A stretch of 64,000 nucleotides of DNA, taken from Eledone cirrhosa (taxonomy: Eukaryota). A program made the position numbers and the translations under genes. Position 1 is the stretch's first letter; each line of letters starts with the position of its first letter. Of this stretch, positions 6,183 through 57,357 are shown piece by piece. The notes beneath the pieces are model-generated. The model ran no database searches. It worked only from the letters and a program-made list of their open reading frames with translations, and was not told where the DNA came from. The stretch covers positions 93,930,001 through 93,994,000 of the forward strand of contig OZ024741.1 of assembly GCA_964016885.1 (NCBI GenBank), read 5' to 3'.

Positions 6183-6590
6183 ATATTGTTATACTTGGGG
6201 AGGGTCATATTGTTGTAATAATATTGCCAGAATTAATAACAGAACACACTCACTGTTTGGTTGGTTTTTGCTTCTGTATCTTTTATATCAGTTAATTCAT
6301 TCGGTCCTCCATTGACTGACCAACGGTCAAAAAAATACATAATGTAATATAGATATAAACACATATATATAGTCTAACATAGTATTTTCGACCGTTGGTC
6401 AGTCAATGGTAACCATTGAGGACCGAATGAATTAATTGATATAAAAGATACAGAAGCGAAAACCAACCAAACAGTGAGTGTGTTCTGTTATTAATTCTGG
6501 CAACATTATTACAACAATATGACCCTCCCCAAGTATAACAATATTTGTTTCGACACACGATTTCATATAAAAAACCTCGCAAAACAAATA
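6183..6590. mobile_element. Short inverted PLE 3'-end pair (family of 15587-17335)
   Basis: gggagggtcatatt...gccagaattaataacagaacacactcac and its reverse complement; only the right copy has the gtttcgacacacgatttc...cctcgcaaaac tail. Confidence 0.7.
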
Positions 6591-11409: not shown

Positions 11410-12319
11410 ATAATGACGTAATGCAGACAGCCAGACATACAGACAGATATTATAAGGGCGCAACGTTATATCTATGTATCTATCTAAAAAGAAAGACTAA
11501 GAATTATATAGAGAGAACGCTAAATCGCCTAATGCGGTCCCTAGGGAATTGAAAATTTGAAATAATTTTTGCTCAAAACACTCACAGGGCCATAAGTATT
11601 ACATGTCTAAAGTTTGAAAACAATCGGTTGGATGATTCTCAAGTTTTAGTGAGCTGACAGACAGACAGACATTCTCTGTTTTAGATATATAGACTAGCAG
11701 AAAACCGTGCCGGGTGGTTTTCTGCTAGTCTATATCTATAAAACTGAGGATGTCTGCCTGTGCGTGTCTGTTTGAATCCCTAAAAATCGAAAAGCACCCA
11801 ACCGACTGTTTTCAAACTTTACACATGTAATACTTATGTTTCAGGGAGTGTTCTGAGCCCCCCAAATTTTAAATTTTCAATGCCCTAGGGTCCGCATTAG
11901 GCGATTTAGCGATCTCTCTCTATAATTCTTAGTCTTTCTCTTTTTAGATAGATACATACATATAACGTCGCGCCCTTATAATATCTGTCTGTATGTCTGG
12001 CTGTCTGATTTACGTCACTTCCTACAATTCGCTCTGCGTCCAGAACGTGCCCTTATAATATCTGTCTGTATGTCTGGATGTCTGCTTCCTCCGGTTATTC
12101 TGCCACCCTTGCTCAAGACAAATCTCACACTCATTCCCCAAACAGTTGGTAAGTGCACACAACTTCTTCCTCACGTTTTAAGCCACAGTGTTGCTTACTT
12201 ACGTACCACCAGACCCTTACTTCTTTGCCAGGCGTGGTTGTGGCAATACTAAGCTTAGCTAAGGCGGTTATATATTTCACAATACCTTATCCCGTGCAAC
12301 GCCGGGTACCACTGCTAGT
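11410..12319. mobile_element. Inverted pair of non-autonomous Helitron-like copies
   Basis: 11410-11690 is inverted relative to 11735-12020; the plus copy ends cccgtgcaacgccggg-taccactgCTAG; the central palindrome is made of two CTAG ends. Confidence 0.6.
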
Positions 12320-15460: not shown

Positions 15461-15503
<43 letters not shown>

Positions 15504-15515
15504 ACAATTCCTTCG

Positions 15516-21367
<5,852 letters not shown>

Positions 21368-38591: not shown

Positions 38592-39326
38592 TGAAGTCGT
38601 CTGTGTGTGTCCCCTAATTTTGGAAAGTCTATACAAATCCACATTTTACTACGATTGACTTCAAACTTGCATATTTATATTCCTTGTGGTCTAAAGATAG
38701 TAACTGCAGCTTTTATTTTTCAATTTTCTGTTGTTAAAGGCGTTTTTTTCACTAAAACTTTAAGCCCTTTTTGTCAGTTCGGCAATTTTGTCTACAATGT
38801 TCAAGAGAGACAACTCTTTAGTATTTTGAAAAGTTACCTCTCTTTATAGACTATATTATCCCTACTTAAACGTACATCCCTTGAAATTGTTGATGGTGAC
38901 CCCCAACAGTAACTCCGAAGCGTTCGGCATCCGATATAAAAGTTCGGTCTATATCAGATTGGGTAGATTTTTGTAACCTTAAAAGTATCCAACTAAATTC
39001 CTTCATGCTCTCCACCACTACAGTCCCACATGCTTACTGCTCTGTAACTCTCATTGTACCATAGCACAACAAATACATGTTCGGTTTGTCGAATGCCTTT
39101 TTACTTAACCGTATCGTCTTGGCTTTCGTGGGTTGAACATTTTACTCTCAGGCACCCCAATTAAGTTAAACCCCTGGTAATCTACGACAAATTTTTTTAT
39201 AAGCACAAAATGTAGAATCCATCCCCAGGCCGAGGTATTCCGTACTTCTCTGTACTGTTTCAGAAAAGAGGGATAAACATGCCAATCTATGTTTAGAAGC
39301 CCGAGCAACGCCGGGCCATTCTGCTA

Positions 39327-39328
<2 letters not shown>
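38585..39328 (+). mobile_element. Non-autonomous Helitron-like element
   Basis: Starts tataaaactga like 11735; ends cccgagcaacgccggg-ccattctgCTAG. Confidence 0.6.
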
Positions 39329-39400
<72 letters not shown>

Positions 39401-39500
39401 TAGCAGAATGGCCCGGCGTTGCTCGGGCTTCTAAACATAGATTGGCATGTTTATCCCTCTTTTCTGAAACAGTACAGATATATAATTTAATATAATTTTG

Positions 39501-40269: not shown

Positions 40270-40474
40270 TGGTAAACGGAATAGAAAATGCTGACAAATT
40301 GTTCACAGTTGAAAAATGGTTTAATTAGGAATAAAAGAGTATTAGTGATTGTATGGGTTAGTATTCAGTTGTGGTTTTAAGTTTTTAAGTTTTTACCGGT
40401 TGCGCATTTCTAAATGCTTTTCAAAAATAATTTTGAGATAGAGTGTCCGTGTTGTTTGCTCTGATCTGATTAGT

Positions 40475-42748
40475 TTGGGGAATTCTACCTGTTTTTATGT
40501 TAAAAATCTTACTAGTGCAGAACCAACACCCAACCTTATCTACTTACTCTCCAAAGGTCTTAAATTCACACCGACCCCACTACGTCCTAACTACTATGAA
40601 ATGAAGGAAGACATCACAGACTTCTGTAGAAAGTTACGACTTAGTGAACAACTATTCGACCAGTACAATGAGGATGAATCATTAGCCAGAAATAGAAGCA
40701 ATTACACCCCTTCAAAAGGTAGAAATAAAATCCTGGACGAATTCTGTGAACACATCACAAACTTCCCTTACCAACACTTGCACAGACAAAAACACAAGCC
40801 AAACTTCAACAAGAAAGAATGGGAAGAATTAAATAGATTAAAAACCGACAGAACCATTACAATTAAAGAGGCTGATAAAGGGAGTACAGTAGTCCTAATG
40901 GAGACAGAATTCTATATTAACTTAGCGCTCTCCACTTTGGAAAACGAAACATACTACGAAAAGGCTGAACACTACAATCAACAGAAAATTATGAGAAACC
41001 TAAAAACTCTAATCAACCAATACAAAGAAGGACTCACTAACAAGGAATTCTGCTTCATCACAGACTTCACAAGTAAATCCAGCCTTTTCTACGGTATCCC
41101 TAAAGTACATAAAAGCGAATCAATCAGTAAGGCATGCAAGGAAGCCACAGACATAGTCATCAATGTCCCCTCACCCAATGATCTCAAATTAAGACCTATA
41201 ATAGCAGGCCCCGCTTGCGAAACGCACCGTCTTAGCAACTTCATTGATACCCTTCTCAAACTCTTCCTCAAGCACATCAAAAGCTATATAAGGGACGACC
41301 TAGATATGCTCAATCACCTCCCTAATATGCCACTTTCTGAACAAACCCTACTAGTGACGTTCGATGTAGTCAACCTATACTCCAACATCCCCCACAACCT
41401 AGGAATAGAAGCTATCCAATTCTGGCTGGATAATTTCCACAATGAACTCCCACAACGCATCAAAAAAGAATTCGTGATAGAGGGACTCAAATTTATCTTG
41501 GAGAACAATTACTTCGTTTTCAACAACAAACCCTACAGGCAGAAATCTGGGACCGCTATGGGAACGAAAACAGCCCCTACTTATGCCAACCTAGTCATGG
41601 GATACCTGGAAATCACCCTCTACACTAAAGTCCTAAACAAATTTGGAAACACCCTCCACTTACACATAGAAAGGAACTGGAAGCGATATCTAGATGACTG
41701 CTTCATCCTTTGGCACAAAAACATCGAAAAACTTAAAGAATTTCACACCCTTATAAATGGGCTCAACACAAACATTAACTTCACGATGGAATACAGCCAT
41801 CAACAACTCCCCTTCCTCGACATCCTCATTAAGATCCATAACAAAAAAATAGAAACAGACATATACTACAAGCCCACAGACTCCAAGCAATATCTCCCCT
41901 TCAACTCTTGCCACCCTAGACACGTTAACATTAATATTCCCTACAACTTAGCCAAGAGAATCTGTACTATAGTCTGCAATAAAAACATCTGCTACTTACG
42001 GCTACAAGAACTAAAGGACACACTCATAGGCAGGGACTACACTGCATCACTAATTGACAATGGAATCCAACGTGCCCTAAAACTCAGTACCCAGGACCTT
42101 AGACACCCTAAAGTAAATCAACCAAAACTAAAAGCTCTTCCATACATCTCCACACACAACCCCCTCAACAATGAGGCCTTTGACACCATCCTCCAGAACA
42201 TCCCTGTATTGAAAAAGGACCATAGAATGAACCAAATTCTACGAACACACGATATCATAAAGAGCAAAAGACAATCCAAGTCAATGAAAAACATCTTAAC
42301 ACATGCCAAAGTACTGCCAACCACAACAACGAAACCCACAGTAAAAAAATGCGATAGACCCAACTGTGGCATTTGCATCAACCTAATAGAGGGTTCGGAA
42401 TTCTATTTCAAAGATGGACAACGTTTTATAGTAAAACACAATTTCACATGTGCATCGGAAAATCTAATATATGTATTAACTTGTTCAGGTTGTCGAGAAC
42501 AATACATAGGCCAGACCAAAAACAGCCTCCGCCAACGCATGACTGTCCATAGATCCCAAATTAAAATACGGGAATACAGGAAAATACCACTGAGTGAACA
42601 CATTGATACCTGTGCCGCCCAAAATCATCCCAACTTCAGAATCTTTCCCCTCTACAAATTTAAAGATAATGCCACCCACACCCAGCGCATCAGCAAGGAA
42701 TCTTACTTCATTAACAAATACGGACCCCGTCTAAACACTTCTCCCTAA
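40475..42748 (+). CDS. PLE reverse transcriptase plus C-terminal GIY-YIG endonuclease (uninterrupted; true N-terminus probably missing)
   Basis: LSKGLKFTP, IKEADKG, FYGIPKVHK, LRPII, FDVVNLYSNIP, QKSGTAMG, RYLDD, FLD; linker CDRPNCGIC; NLIYVLTCSGCREQYIGQT..R..H..H. The first ~11 codons come from the inverted repeat. Confidence 0.93.
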   Translation: MGNSTCFYVKNLTSAEPTPNLIYLLSKGLKFTPTPLRPNYYEMKEDITDFCRKLRLSEQLFDQYNEDESLARNRSNYTPSKGRNKILDEFCEHITNFPYQHLHRQKHKPNFNKKEWEELNRLKTDRTITIKEADKGSTVVLMETEFYINLALSTLENETYYEKAEHYNQQKIMRNLKTLINQYKEGLTNKEFCFITDFTSKSSLFYGIPKVHKSESISKACKEATDIVINVPSPNDLKLRPIIAGPACETHRLSNFIDTLLKLFLKHIKSYIRDDLDMLNHLPNMPLSEQTLLVTFDVVNLYSNIPHNLGIEAIQFWLDNFHNELPQRIKKEFVIEGLKFILENNYFVFNNKPYRQKSGTAMGTKTAPTYANLVMGYLEITLYTKVLNKFGNTLHLHIERNWKRYLDDCFILWHKNIEKLKEFHTLINGLNTNINFTMEYSHQQLPFLDILIKIHNKKIETDIYYKPTDSKQYLPFNSCHPRHVNINIPYNLAKRICTIVCNKNICYLRLQELKDTLIGRDYTASLIDNGIQRALKLSTQDLRHPKVNQPKLKALPYISTHNPLNNEAFDTILQNIPVLKKDHRMNQILRTHDIIKSKRQSKSMKNILTHAKVLPTTTTKPTVKKCDRPNCGICINLIEGSEFYFKDGQRFIVKHNFTCASENLIYVLTCSGCREQYIGQTKNSLRQRMTVHRSQIKIREYRKIPLSEHIDTCAAQNHPNFRIFPLYKFKDNATHTQRISKESYFINKYGPRLNTSP

Positions 42749-50489: not shown

Positions 50490-50816
50490 ATATATATAAG
50501 GTGTCCTACACGAGTGAAAGTATAAAGAAAAAGAGATGAAATCGAAAATGCAACTGGAGTCTTGTTTTTTTTTTAAATATATATATTTATTTGGTTCCTT
50601 TACCGGTTTCGCAGTTCTTCTGCTTTTCAAAAGGTGAGTTGAGATGGAGGGTCTGTGGTTTTTCTCACATCTGATGTGAGAAAAACCACAGACCCTCCAT
50701 CTCAACTCACCTTTTGAAAAGCAGAAGAACTGCGAAACCGGTAAAGGAACCAAATAAATATATATATTTAAAAAAAAAACAAGACTCCAGTTGCATTTTC
50801 GATTTCATCTCTTTTT

Positions 50817-50822
<6 letters not shown>
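50490..50822. mobile_element. Palindromic mini-element with two U3:A8 hammerheads (50597-50634 -, 50710-50747 +)
   Basis: cctt-TTGAAAA-gcag/ctgc-GAAAC-CG-GTA-aagg; ~150-bp arms. Confidence 0.75.
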
Positions 50823-50860
<38 letters not shown>

Positions 50861-50927: not shown

Positions 50928-50969
<42 letters not shown>

Positions 50970-51405
50970 TGCTACTGTACGTCTGTATACATATATGTAT
51001 TTACGTATACATACATACTTACATTTAAGTAAGTGCCATACTAAGAGTGAGAAATGAAATTTCGTTTTCATTTTTTTCAACTTATCGTTTTCGGTATGCC
51101 TGACCGATTTAACTCACTCAATATGCAAATTAGGCTGCTCAGCCGTTAATTTTCATAAGGAAAGTATATACTTTCGAACGTTCAACTATCTGGCAGATGG
51201 GTATACGGTGCTGATGATAGCTAACAAGCTTGAAACTAGTACATCGTTCCTGTGTCAGTGTTGAACAAAAAGGTGACGTGGTTGCCTTAACACCGTATGG
51301 CATAAATTCAGGCTGTTCAGTTTGTTTACAAACGAACAAAGCGGCGTTATAATAAGCGTCCGCTAAACTGATGCGTGCATATATGTATGTGTACCTGTAT
51401 GTATA

Positions 51406-51471
<66 letters not shown>

Positions 51472-53485
51472 TATAGACATAGAATATTCGAAAATATTCT
51501 GTATGTTTATAATAAACATTTTGAAGACCTAATCGCTATAGAATAGAATACGTCACGTATTACAATTAGATTCTCGATAAAAGCAAGGGAAGTAATCTAC
51601 GCGTTTCATTCTTGTTAGAAATCATCAGGACTACATATCCAGTGCTTTTATCGAGAATGACACAGCTAGAGACTTATAGAATACTTAGCTGTGTACAGGA
51701 ACTGGTTTGAAAGAGCGGTTGCCGGTCCGGCAGAAATTAGAAATTGGAATAAATGCTCTGAAATAGCGATATATATGTGAATATAGACATAGAATATTCG
51801 AAAATATTCTGTATGTTTATAATAAACATTTTGAAGACCTAATCGCTATAGAATAGAATACGTCACGTATTACAATTAGATTCTCGATAAAAGCAAGGGA
51901 AGTAATCTACGCGTTTCATTCTTGTTAGAAATCATCAGGACTACATATCCAGTGCTTTTATCGAGAATGACACAGCTAGAGACTTATAGAATACTTAGCT
52001 GTGTACAGGAACTGGTTTGAAAGAGCGGTTGCCGGTCCGGCAGAAATTAGAAATTGGAATAAATGCTCTGAAATAGCGATATATATGTGAATATAGACAT
52101 AGAATATTCGAAAATATTCTGTATGTTTATAATAAACATTTTGAAGACCTAATCGCTATAGAATAGAATACGTCACGTATTACAATTAGATTCTCGATAA
52201 AAGCAAGGGAAGTAATCTACGCGTTTCATTCTTGTTAGAAATCATCAGGACTACATATCCAGTGCTTTTATCGAGAATGACACAGCTAGAGACTTATAGA
52301 ATACTTAGCTGTGTACAGGAACTGGTTTGAAAGAGCGGTTGCCGGTCCGGCAGAAATTAGAAATTGGAATAAATGCTCTGAAATAGCGATATATATGTGA
52401 ATATAGACATAGAATATTCGAAAATATTCTGTATGTTTATAATAAACATTTTGAAGACCTAATCGCTATAGAATAGAATACGTCACGTATTACAATTAGA
52501 TTCTCGATAAAAGCAAGGGAAGTAATCTACGCGTTTCATTCTTGTTAGAAATCATCAGGACTACATATCCAGTGCTTTTATCGAGAATGACACAGCTAGA
52601 GACTTATAGAATACTTAGCTGTGTACAGGAACTGGTTTGAAAGAGCGGTTGCCGGTCCGGCGAATATTCTATGTCTATATTCACATATATATCGCTATTT
52701 CAGAGCATTTATTCCAATTTCTAATTTCTGCCGGACCGGCAACCGCTCTTTCAAACCAGTTCCTGTACACAGCTAAGTATTCTATAAGTCTCTAGCTGTG
52801 TCATTCTCGATAAAAGCACTGGATATGTAGTCCTGATGATTTCTAACAAGAATGAAACGCGTAGATTACTTCCCTTGCTTTTATCGAGAATCTAATTGTA
52901 ATACGTGACGTATTCTATTCTATAGCGATTAGGTCTTCAAAATGTTTATTATAAACATACAGAATATTTTCGAATATTCTATGTCTATATTCACATATAT
53001 ATCGCTATTTCAGAGCATTTATTCCAATATATATATATATATATGCATGCTACTGTACGTCTGTATACATATATGTATTTACGTATACATACATACTTAC
53101 ATTTAAGTAAGTGCCATACTAAGAGTGAGAAATGAAATTTCGTTTTCATTTTTTTCAACTTATCGTTTTCGGTATGTCTGACCGATTTAACTCACTCAAT
53201 ATGCAAATTAGGCTGCTCAGCCGTTAATTTTCATAAGGAAAGTATATACTTTCGAACGTTCAACTATCTGGCAGATGGGTATACGGTGCTGATGATAGCT
53301 AACAAGCTTGAAACTAGTACATCGTTCCTGTGTCAGTGTTGAACAAAAAGGTGACGTGGTTGCCTTAACACCGTATGGCATAAATTCAGGCTGTTCAGTT
53401 TGTTTACAAACGAACAAAGCGGCGTTATAATAAGCGTCCGCTAAACTGATGCGTGCATATATGTATGTGTACCTGTATGTATATA

Positions 53486-53525
<40 letters not shown>

Positions 53526-53963
53526 TGCTACTGTACGTCTGTATACATATATGTATTTACGTATACATACATACTTACATTTAAGTAAGTGCCATACTAA
53601 GAGTGAGAAATGAAATTTCGTTTTCATTTTTTTCAACTTATCGTTTTCGGTATGTCTGACCGATTTAACTCACTCAATATGCAAATTAGGCTGCTCAGCC
53701 GTTAATTTTCATAAGGAAAGTATATACTTTCGAACGTTCAACTATCTGGCAGATGGGTATACGGTGCTGATGATAGCTAACAAGCTTGAAACTAGTACAT
53801 CGTTCCTGTGTCAGTGTTGAACAAAAAGGTGACGTGGTTTGCCTTAACACCGTATGGCATAAATTCAGGCTGTTCAGTTTGTTTACAAACGAACAAAGCG
53901 GCGTTATAATAGAGCGTCCGCTAAACTGATGCGTGCATATATGTATGTGTACCTGTATGTATA

Positions 53964-54011
<48 letters not shown>

Positions 54012-54125
54012 TGTTACTGTACGTCTGTATACATATATGTATTTACGTATACATACATACTTACATTTAAGTAAGTGCACTACTAAGAGTGAGAAATAAA
54101 ATTTCGTTTTCATTTTTTCAACTTA
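50891..54125 (+). mobile_element. ~480-bp HHR tandem array (retrozyme-like, about 3.4 units), interrupted by the 310-bp array
   Basis: Unit marker gcatg(c/t)tactgtacg at 50967, 53045, 53523 and 54009; HHR acggtg-CTGATGA-t-agct-aaca-agct-t-GAAAC-TA-GTA-catcgt at 51205-51247, 53283-53325 and 53761-53803. Confidence 0.85.
51469..53028 (-). mobile_element. 310-bp HHR tandem array (retrozyme-like): ~3.8 units plus ~1.2 inverted units
   Basis: atatagacat at 51471, 51781, 52091 and 52401; inversion at ~52661; HHR gtagtc-CTGATGA-t-ttct-aaca-agaa-t-GAAAC-GC-GTA-gattac at 51592-51634, 51902-51944, 52212-52254, 52522-52564 (-) and 52827-52869 (+). Confidence 0.9.
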
Positions 54126-54194
54126 TATATATATATATATATATATAACCACTCAGCCACACGCCTTCATATATATAACCACTCACCCACACGC

Positions 54195-57357
<3,163 letters not shown>

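What the first reader, a model, noticed from the sequence alone, without database searches (positions are those of the whole stretch)
51469..53028. 310-bp unit: near-identical copies, palindromic stem III, 16-bp clamp and terminal inversion
Seen: the units look identical by eye at an exact 310-bp period. Stem III is only ACGCGT, which is self-complementary. The HHR is enclosed by a perfect 16-bp inverted repeat (attctcgataaaagca 51570-51585 / tgcttttatcgagaat 51643-51658) that extends stem I. Copy number is non-integer and the orientation flips at 52661. Established: minimal HHRs with palindromic stem III cleave efficiently as dimers. Inference: a recent insertion copied from a circular or multimeric RNA.
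Basis: partly seen in the sequence, partly recalled or inferred. Interest (0 to 1): 0.8.

Follow-up and report, generated by a model that had tools for sequence, protein, structure and literature searches.

The report
Two-armed ribozyme repeat with Penelope footprint
This is one of over a thousand young genomic insertions of a 310-base non-coding repeat with a predicted self-cutting RNA fold, most laid down as two back-to-back arms with one short and one long fixed end, which likely records a Penelope-type jumping-gene enzyme copying one RNA, often a circle, from both sides of a DNA cut.

Summary
In detail: 3.85 identical 310-bp units (hammerhead on the minus strand), then a 1.19-unit inverted arm from 52661; helix III is the palindrome ACGCGT; the 16-bp clamp is real. 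It is a young animal non-LTR retrozyme: about 12,000 units at over 1,000 loci. The inversion is the family's normal form: 83 of 101 loci examined have two divergent arms, and in 82 of 82 with both ends visible one arm ends near unit position 130 and the other near 165. That is the 35-bp Penelope 'tail', in (TA)n, with 12-15-bp target duplications where readable. Both arms carry the same haplotype at 62 of 68 loci (12% across loci). Best reading: a Penelope-like protein primes on both strands of a staggered cut, at two fixed sites of one RNA, and the two cDNAs join by microhomology. Fixed private haplotypes and no run-off at the ribozyme cut favour a circular template; three loci point to multimers. 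Cleavage, expression, circles and the partner enzyme are untested. The class is known. The scan noted this family and reading before on other DNA of this genome (e1-8803611).

The parts
51468..52661 (-). Left arm: 3.85 identical 310-bp units, ribozyme-sense on minus; 5' end at unit position 177, outer 3' end at position 130 (the short end). Unit numbering starts at the base after the GUA cut.
52661..53028 (+). Right arm: 1.19 units, ribozyme-sense on plus; 5' end at unit position 108, outer 3' end at position 165 (the tail end)
52661..52661 (.). Head-to-head (5'-5') junction of the arms, one shared base
52994..53028 (+). 35-bp tail (unit 131-165), present at this outer end only
   Evidence: tail defined for Penelope-like elements in PMC8557442 and PMC11167929
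53001..53017 (+). Motif between the two end sites (unit 138-154; also 52691-52707), kept in older sister families; likely protein-binding site (inferred)
52827..52869 (+). Type I hammerhead, plus-strand copy: helix I 6 bp, core 52833-52839, U-U plus 4-bp helix II with AACA loop, helix III ACGCGT, predicted cut after 52863
51592..51634 (-). Type I hammerhead, first of four minus-strand copies (cores start at 51628, 51938, 52248, 52558)
51570..51585 (.). 16-bp clamp arm (unit 13-28 on minus), repeated in every unit
51643..51658 (.). 16-bp clamp arm (unit 250-265 on minus), repeated in every unit
51412..51467 (.). Left (TA)n target, 56 alternating bases
53029..53044 (.). Right (TA)n target, 16 alternating bases; a target duplication cannot be read in pure TA
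50949..54126 (+). Host array: about 478-bp hammerhead-bearing units (cores at 51211, 53289, 53767; helix III ACTAGT), split by the 310-bp insertion inside the TA tract of one unit

Best explanation
This is a young non-coding hammerhead repeat (non-LTR retrozyme) inserted in a TA microsatellite as two divergent arms with two fixed outer ends, likely by a Penelope-like reverse transcriptase-endonuclease that primed on both strands of one staggered cut and copied one RNA, likely often a monomer circle. Shown: identical units, two divergent arms, one end near unit 130 and one near 165, TA target, 12-15-bp duplications where readable, same haplotype in both arms, short microhomology or templated filler at the junction. 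Inferred: (1) multimeric transcripts are cut at GUA by a double hammerhead that pairs the ACGCGU palindromes of neighbouring units; the clamp holds the monomer's ends together for ligation, and a monomer circle would cleave poorly; (2) a Penelope-like protein, likely a dimer, binds near unit 138-154 and cuts (TA)n with 3' overhangs of about 12-13 nt; (3) one 3'-OH starts cDNA at the short site and the other at the tail site of the same RNA; (4) each runs for a variable number of units and stops at no fixed place; (5) host end-joining fuses the two cDNA ends; (6) some long arrays later expand as satellites.
For: 83 of 101 loci are two-armed and divergent; 82 of 82 with both ends visible pair one short with one tail end, 42 of them not chosen as pairs. 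Of 73 listed tail ends 47 had a short-end partner and 0 a tail-end partner. An intact, young Penelope-like family of this genome shows the same rule in 8 of 8 loci with two divergent ends in view, with a 38-bp tail. In vitro a Penelope-like protein cuts and extends both strands at AT-rich DNA, starts at two internal RNA sites that bound the tail, and is predicted to be a dimer (PMC11167929). Same majority haplotype in both arms at 62 of 68 loci against 547 of 4556 cross-locus pairs; 24 haplotypes among the 62, 17 seen once. Private variants fixed through up to 25 units (A88T in L127) need a one-unit bottleneck. Only 2 of 166 arm 5' ends lie within 5 nt of the ribozyme cut, so cut linear RNAs do not show run-off. 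No arm of 183 has a phase jump above 23 nt, whereas a rough model has 53% of arms reaching the 5' end of a linear source arm. Tail arm longer in 41 of 82. At junctions without filler 31 of 53 have 2 or more shared bases against 18% at random. None of 29 fixed variants hits the 16 core and helix III positions (about 1.5 expected, so weak alone); 7 of 10 helix substitutions keep pairing against 30 of 174 at random.
Against: No cleavage, RNA or circle is shown. The unconstrained fold of a two-ribozyme transcript forms neither the double nor the single active core, and helix II has a U-U base. Of nine Xenopus retrozyme dimers tested in vitro only one cleaved (preprint 10.64898/2026.07.22.740005), and the anole element did not need cleavage for insertion in vitro. 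Three loci (L081, L107, L120) share unit-private variants between arms in register from the outer ends, which a monomer circle cannot give; three more (L108, L036, L047) share them out of register. 17 of 101 loci have one arm only. In vitro the two start sites did not differ between strands, so strict pairing is not yet reproduced biochemically. No autonomous element sharing sequence with the unit was found.
Confidence: 0.65

Rival explanations
1. Same enzyme and two-strand priming, but the templates are only linear multimeric transcripts of a few long genomic arrays; no circle is involved.
For: In-register unit-private variants in both arms of L081, L107 and L120 show heterogeneous multimers as templates at least sometimes. 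Arms of 23-45 units exist as possible sources. Uncleaved RNA was the main substrate in vitro (PMC11167929).
Against: 24 haplotypes among 62 loci, each fixed in most or all units, need many one-unit bottlenecks. No inherited junctions: 82 distinct junctions in 83 loci, the one repeat being the clamp-to-clamp join of L041 and L059. No run-off cluster of 5' ends (best 10-nt window P = 0.28).
Confidence: 0.2
2. One cDNA is made, folds back and copies itself (self-priming), and the endonuclease resolves the intermediate at the other fixed site, as proposed for Penelope inverted repeats.
For: Self-priming and endonuclease resolution are proposed in print (PMC3846280 passages; PMC8557442 passages). 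A few junctions are near-perfect palindromes (L056, L064).
Against: Variants mirror across the junction in 2 of 87 comparisons, both in L107 where the two registers coincide, against 16 of 94 in the outer-end register. In L120 the short arm repeats the outer, not the inner, part of the long arm. Either end type can be on the longer arm (41 of 82). The test loses power if most minor variants arose after insertion.
Confidence: 0.08
3. A satellite that spreads and inverts by DNA-level recombination or replication slippage, with a hammerhead-like motif as a passenger.
For: The 45-unit arm of M130 shows shuffled recurrent variants typical of unequal exchange; L097 and L036 show some too.
Against: Fixed paired ends, divergent polarity, target duplications, dispersed TA sites and the same footprint on a coding Penelope-like family are not expected.
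Confidence: 0.04
4. Collapsed or chimeric assembly (fold-back read artefact).
For: Units are 100% identical; no contig listed from four public runs bridges 52661 (a hole proves nothing).
Against: The same ordered anatomy at 82 loci with different junctions, haplotypes and duplications; contigs of run X3 leave the unit for TA at unit 139 and 170. The unit count at this one locus could still be off.
Confidence: 0.02

Closest known systems
Animal non-LTR retrozymes (Cervera and de la Pena 2020, PMC7229834, parts 1-4 of 6 read; Li, Clavereau and Pollet 2026, bioRxiv 10.64898/2026.07.22.740005, parts 1-3 of 5 read)
   Same: Non-coding tandem units of 150-450 bp, low GC, one type I hammerhead per unit, thousands of copies. 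Axolotl HHR_Amex1 has a 1-bp helix III with a palindromic tetraloop and HHR_Amex2 a U-U at the base of helix II; both cleave better as dimers. Penelope-like elements are proposed as the mobilisers.
   Different: In the parts read neither paper describes inverted second arms, fixed paired ends or shared haplotypes. Circles and cleavage were shown there, not here. No sequence link to an autonomous element was found here.
Endonuclease-bearing Penelope-like elements (PMC8557442 and PMC3846280, passages; PMC4209133, passages; PMC11167929, parts 1-2 of 4 and supplement search)
   Same: Head-to-head inverted 5'-truncated copy, 30-40-bp tail at one end only, AT-rich or (TA)n target, hammerhead upstream of two internal start sites, short target duplication.
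   Different: No reading frame; both arms are multimers of one 310-bp unit; the tail is called optional in print but here pairs one-to-one with a short end in 82 of 82 loci.
L1 twin priming (recalled, no call)
   Same: Two primers on one RNA give an inverted arrangement joined by microhomology.
   Different: In L1 one primer uses the poly(A) end and the second an internal site that varies; here both sites are internal and fixed, and both arms run through many units.

Membership tests
Animal non-LTR retrozyme | Tandem units of about 150-450 bp with low GC | tested here: met
   310-bp period, 3.9 copies; GC 0.32-0.34
Animal non-LTR retrozyme | One type I hammerhead with intact core in each unit | tested here: met
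   Core with 0 mismatches in all five copies; aligns to Rfam HH9 below its gathering score
Animal non-LTR retrozyme | No coding capacity | tested here: met
   No frame of 120 aa inside the arms; one 129-aa simple-repeat frame overlaps the left edge only
Animal non-LTR retrozyme | Dispersed, high copy number with target duplications | tested here: met
   12,345 exact matches of a 63-nt internal pattern; 12-15-bp duplications at 8 loci with readable flanks, read by eye; not readable at this locus
Animal non-LTR retrozyme | Self-cleavage | not testable with these tools
   Only folding energies and variant patterns
Animal non-LTR retrozyme | Expressed as linear and circular RNA | tested here: inconclusive
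   The run search listed no holder on record as RNA, which says nothing either way; contigs cannot tell a circle from a tandem array
Insertion by a Penelope-like protein | Inverted 5'-truncated copy, head to head | tested here: met
   83 of 101 loci
Insertion by a Penelope-like protein | 30-40-bp tail at one end only | tested here: met
   35 bp between the modal ends; 82 of 82 loci with both ends visible
Insertion by a Penelope-like protein | AT-rich or (TA)n target | tested here: met
   77 of 79 loci have an alternating TA run of 6 or more on at least one side
Insertion by a Penelope-like protein | An autonomous element that shares the terminal (pLTR) sequence | tested here: inconclusive
   Intact RT plus GIY-YIG elements exist but none examined shares sequence with the unit; the search covered a small part of the genome's families
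Autonomous Penelope-like element | Single frame with reverse transcriptase and GIY-YIG endonuclease | tested here: not met
   None in the insertion

The most novel reading that the evidence does not exclude
The family is a genomic record of the missing step in Penelope-like retrotransposition: a protein dimer loads one RNA, assigns its two internal start sites one to each strand of a staggered cut, and copies a covalently closed ribozyme RNA round and round from both sides. This would explain the inverted copy and the one-sided tail of all Penelope-like elements as one concerted reaction, and would be direct evidence that animal retrozyme circles are reverse-transcription templates.
Probability: 0.45. 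Interest if true: 0.72.

Novelty: new member of a known kind. Interest (0 to 1): 0.5.

Why it matters
How Penelope-like elements make their inverted, one-tailed insertions is called open in print (PMC8557442), and that retrozyme circles are copied by Penelope enzymes is a hypothesis. Because this unit is short, young and repeated, each locus keeps a readable record: fixed paired start sites, shared haplotypes and unit order. It gives a defined 310-nt substrate and two mapped start sites for an in vitro test, and a both-strand, rolling insertion reaction would interest genome engineers. The element class itself is known.

Tried and rejected
DNA search of the own genome with the unit returned nothing because common words are skipped; patterns were used instead. 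Partner search: the 16 single-arm loci join TA or host DNA at their 5' ends (two at assembly gaps); the coding element across the gap at L033 has an unrelated end; the 272-bp filler in the L037 junction comes from an unrelated repeat clustered on contig C25; 30 loci of the window's 768-aa element share no sequence with the unit; 30 loci of older sister families gave one neighbouring fragment and no link. A 'ruler' idea (tail site set by distance despite an insertion) was dropped: old and young units align without a gap there. Expression: no RNA holder listed; this is no evidence either way. No listed contig bridges the junction. Run X21 gave no reads and is no test. Lünse et al. 2017 (PMC5785218) is not held; its title was seen in a reference list only. 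Literature searches listed no paper that, by title or start of abstract, reports paired fixed ends or two arms for retrozymes; most subscription papers are not in the library, the bioRxiv supplements are closed, and the supplement of PMC7229834 (its model figure S9) was not read, so absence from print is not established.

Full report
Observation. The stretch 51468-52661 has an exact 310-bp period with no differences between units, and 52661-53028 is an exact inverted copy of 368 bp. Each unit has a type I hammerhead with an intact core, a 6-bp helix I, a 4-bp helix II closed by U-U with an AACA loop, and helix III ACGCGT. The 16-bp clamp is exact, beyond 2000 of 2000 shuffles, and continues helix I through internal loops. 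Rfam gives nothing at gathering score and HH9 at E 0.012 below it. The insertion lies in the TA tract of an older array of about 478 bp that has its own hammerhead. The window comes from a 3.0-Gb assembly rich in simple repeats; I did not determine the organism.

Family. The exact 37-nt ribozyme occurs 4,541 times and a 63-nt internal pattern 12,345 times. End patterns give 682 and 613 forward-strand matches (the reverse counts list some places twice), so there are roughly 1,300 ends of each kind as a lower bound. I numbered the unit from the base after the GUA cut. From the first 100 rows of each end search I kept 73 tail ends (165-167) and 72 short ends (130 or 139), dropping duplicates and six short ends beyond the range of the other list; 47 tail ends have a divergent short-end partner, none a tail-end partner, and the two short-short rows are neighbouring separate loci. 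I then fetched loci. After removing duplicates (L070, L121, the second element of L035) and merging overlaps, 101 loci including the window remain, all but the window from the first 160 Mb of contig C1: 83 two-armed, 17 one-armed, 1 complex. All two-armed loci diverge, with 5' ends joined. In 82 of 82 with both outer ends visible one end is at 118-139 and the other at 155-172; by my tally 40 were picked as pairs and 42 by one end or an internal pattern. The tail arm is the longer in 41 of 82; median arm 1,066 bp, longest 14,079 bp. One-armed loci end at either site (most were selected by that end). 77 of 79 loci have a TA run on at least one side, and eight with readable flanks show 12-15-bp duplications (read by eye). 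At junctions 31 of 53 without filler share 2 or more bases (18% expected), 30 of 83 have filler, often copied from nearby unit sequence, and two use the clamp itself.

What the variants say. Both arms have the same majority haplotype at 62 of 68 loci where both cover the unit, against 12% of cross-locus pairs; 17 of 24 haplotypes are seen once. Two of the six mismatches rest on arms of one or two units. So both arms come from one RNA or one source. Private variants fixed through many units imply a one-unit bottleneck, as in rolling-circle copying. Arm 5' ends avoid no region and do not pile up at the ribozyme cut (2 of 166; best window P = 0.28, though 32 of 181 fall at unit 13-40, the clamp, against 16 expected). 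No arm of 183 shows a read-through of an older junction, which a rough model expects in about half of arms if existing arms were linear templates (the model fails if a few long arrays are the sources; L089 has a doubled junction). Against a pure monomer circle: L081, L107 and L120 share unit-private variants in register from the outer ends, and L108, L036 and L047 share them out of register; about 0.08 such sharings were expected by chance among the 73 loci. These point to multimeric templates or later gene conversion. Fold-back copying is disfavoured: 2 of 87 mirrored, and L120 repeats the outer part. The longest arm shows satellite-type shuffling after insertion.

Ribozyme. With the cores constrained, the double hammerhead in a two-ribozyme transcript scores -113.2 kcal/mol against -105.5 for two single ones; the free fold (-118.9) keeps the local clamp and misfolds the cores. 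In the monomer, linear or circular, the clamp and helix I bring the cut ends together. None of 29 fixed variants touches the core or helix III, while 5 of 132 minor ones do; common variants sit at position 7 of the core, in loop II, and at the U-U, which T287A turns into A-U. Seven of ten helix substitutions that I listed from the majority variants keep pairing. This suggests selection on the fold; activity is not shown.

Relatives. Older families of about 320 bp (4,760 matches of a shared motif) align over the whole unit at 74-78% of aligned positions, with longer helix III palindromes and a clamp of different sequence; 18 of 30 sampled copies end at the homologous tail site (one search printed 17 and misfiled L146). 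The window holds two RT plus GIY-YIG frames. One belongs to a young family with many intact 784-aa copies whose divergent pairs have one short and one 38-bp-tail end in 8 of 8 cases. It shares no sequence with the unit, so the partner is not identified.

Comparison with print. Animal non-LTR retrozymes match in size, ribozyme type, palindromic helix III, U-U base of helix II and dimer dependence (PMC7229834); a 2026 preprint ties them to Penelope-like elements by distribution and sequence. The inverted copy and one-sided tail are known for Penelope-like elements, and two internal start sites with both strands extended were shown in vitro. The dimer switch is described in PMC4209133. I found no paper stating strict pairing of the two sites or same-molecule copying of both arms, within the library's limits.

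Earlier notes of the scan, seen after my own analysis, report the same family elsewhere in this genome with the same reading, and similar families here and in other genomes. They are not independent evidence.

Verdict. Real feature; new member of a known kind; the mechanism reading is well supported for two-strand priming at fixed sites and moderately for a circular template. Interest 0.5.

Noticed in passing
window 50949-54126: Host array of about 478-bp units, over 99% alike outside the TA tract, with its own hammerhead (U-U base of helix II, AACA loop, helix III ACTAGT); it looks one-armed. A retrozyme nested in a retrozyme.
   Followed up: partly
window 50521-50823: Perfect 151-bp inverted repeat with a degenerate hammerhead (helix III ACCGGT) and a short extra stretch on the left arm; it resembles the end of the coding family at 40442-42748.
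   Followed up: partly
window 40442-42748 (+), 18410-20350 (-): Young Penelope-like family, RT plus C-terminal GIY-YIG, at least 138 scored copies at 98-100%, many with intact 784-aa frames; its hammerhead-like motif lacks the canonical core.
   Followed up: partly
window 55124-57238 (-): Second Penelope-like frame (704 aa) whose 3' end lies in TA at about 54325, next to the arrays; no sequence shared with the 310-bp unit.
   Followed up: partly
window 4482, 5004, 14004, 47043 and palindromes 15462-17457, 11414-12017, 39249-39478, 6183-6544: Further hammerhead-like motifs and head-to-head relics; the region is dense with Penelope-type insertions.
   Followed up: no
L037:3099-3370: 272 bp of an unrelated repeat, otherwise clustered on contig C25, captured between the two arms.
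   Followed up: partly
L089:2129-2306: Junction present twice with short pieces of both arms between, as if the joined ends were extended, released and rejoined.
   Followed up: no
runs X1, X2, X8, X10: The unit is held by runs under 17 organism labels; in four of the seven runs laid it is a single 340-nt contig at low depth with little or no flank, while a genomic run of one such label gave no reads. Cross-contamination or diet is the plain reading; run kinds are not on record.
   Followed up: partly
G000:C1:97461500-97476500 (L130, L131): A 45-unit arm with recurrent shuffled variants: a retrozyme arm turning into a satellite.
   Followed up: partly
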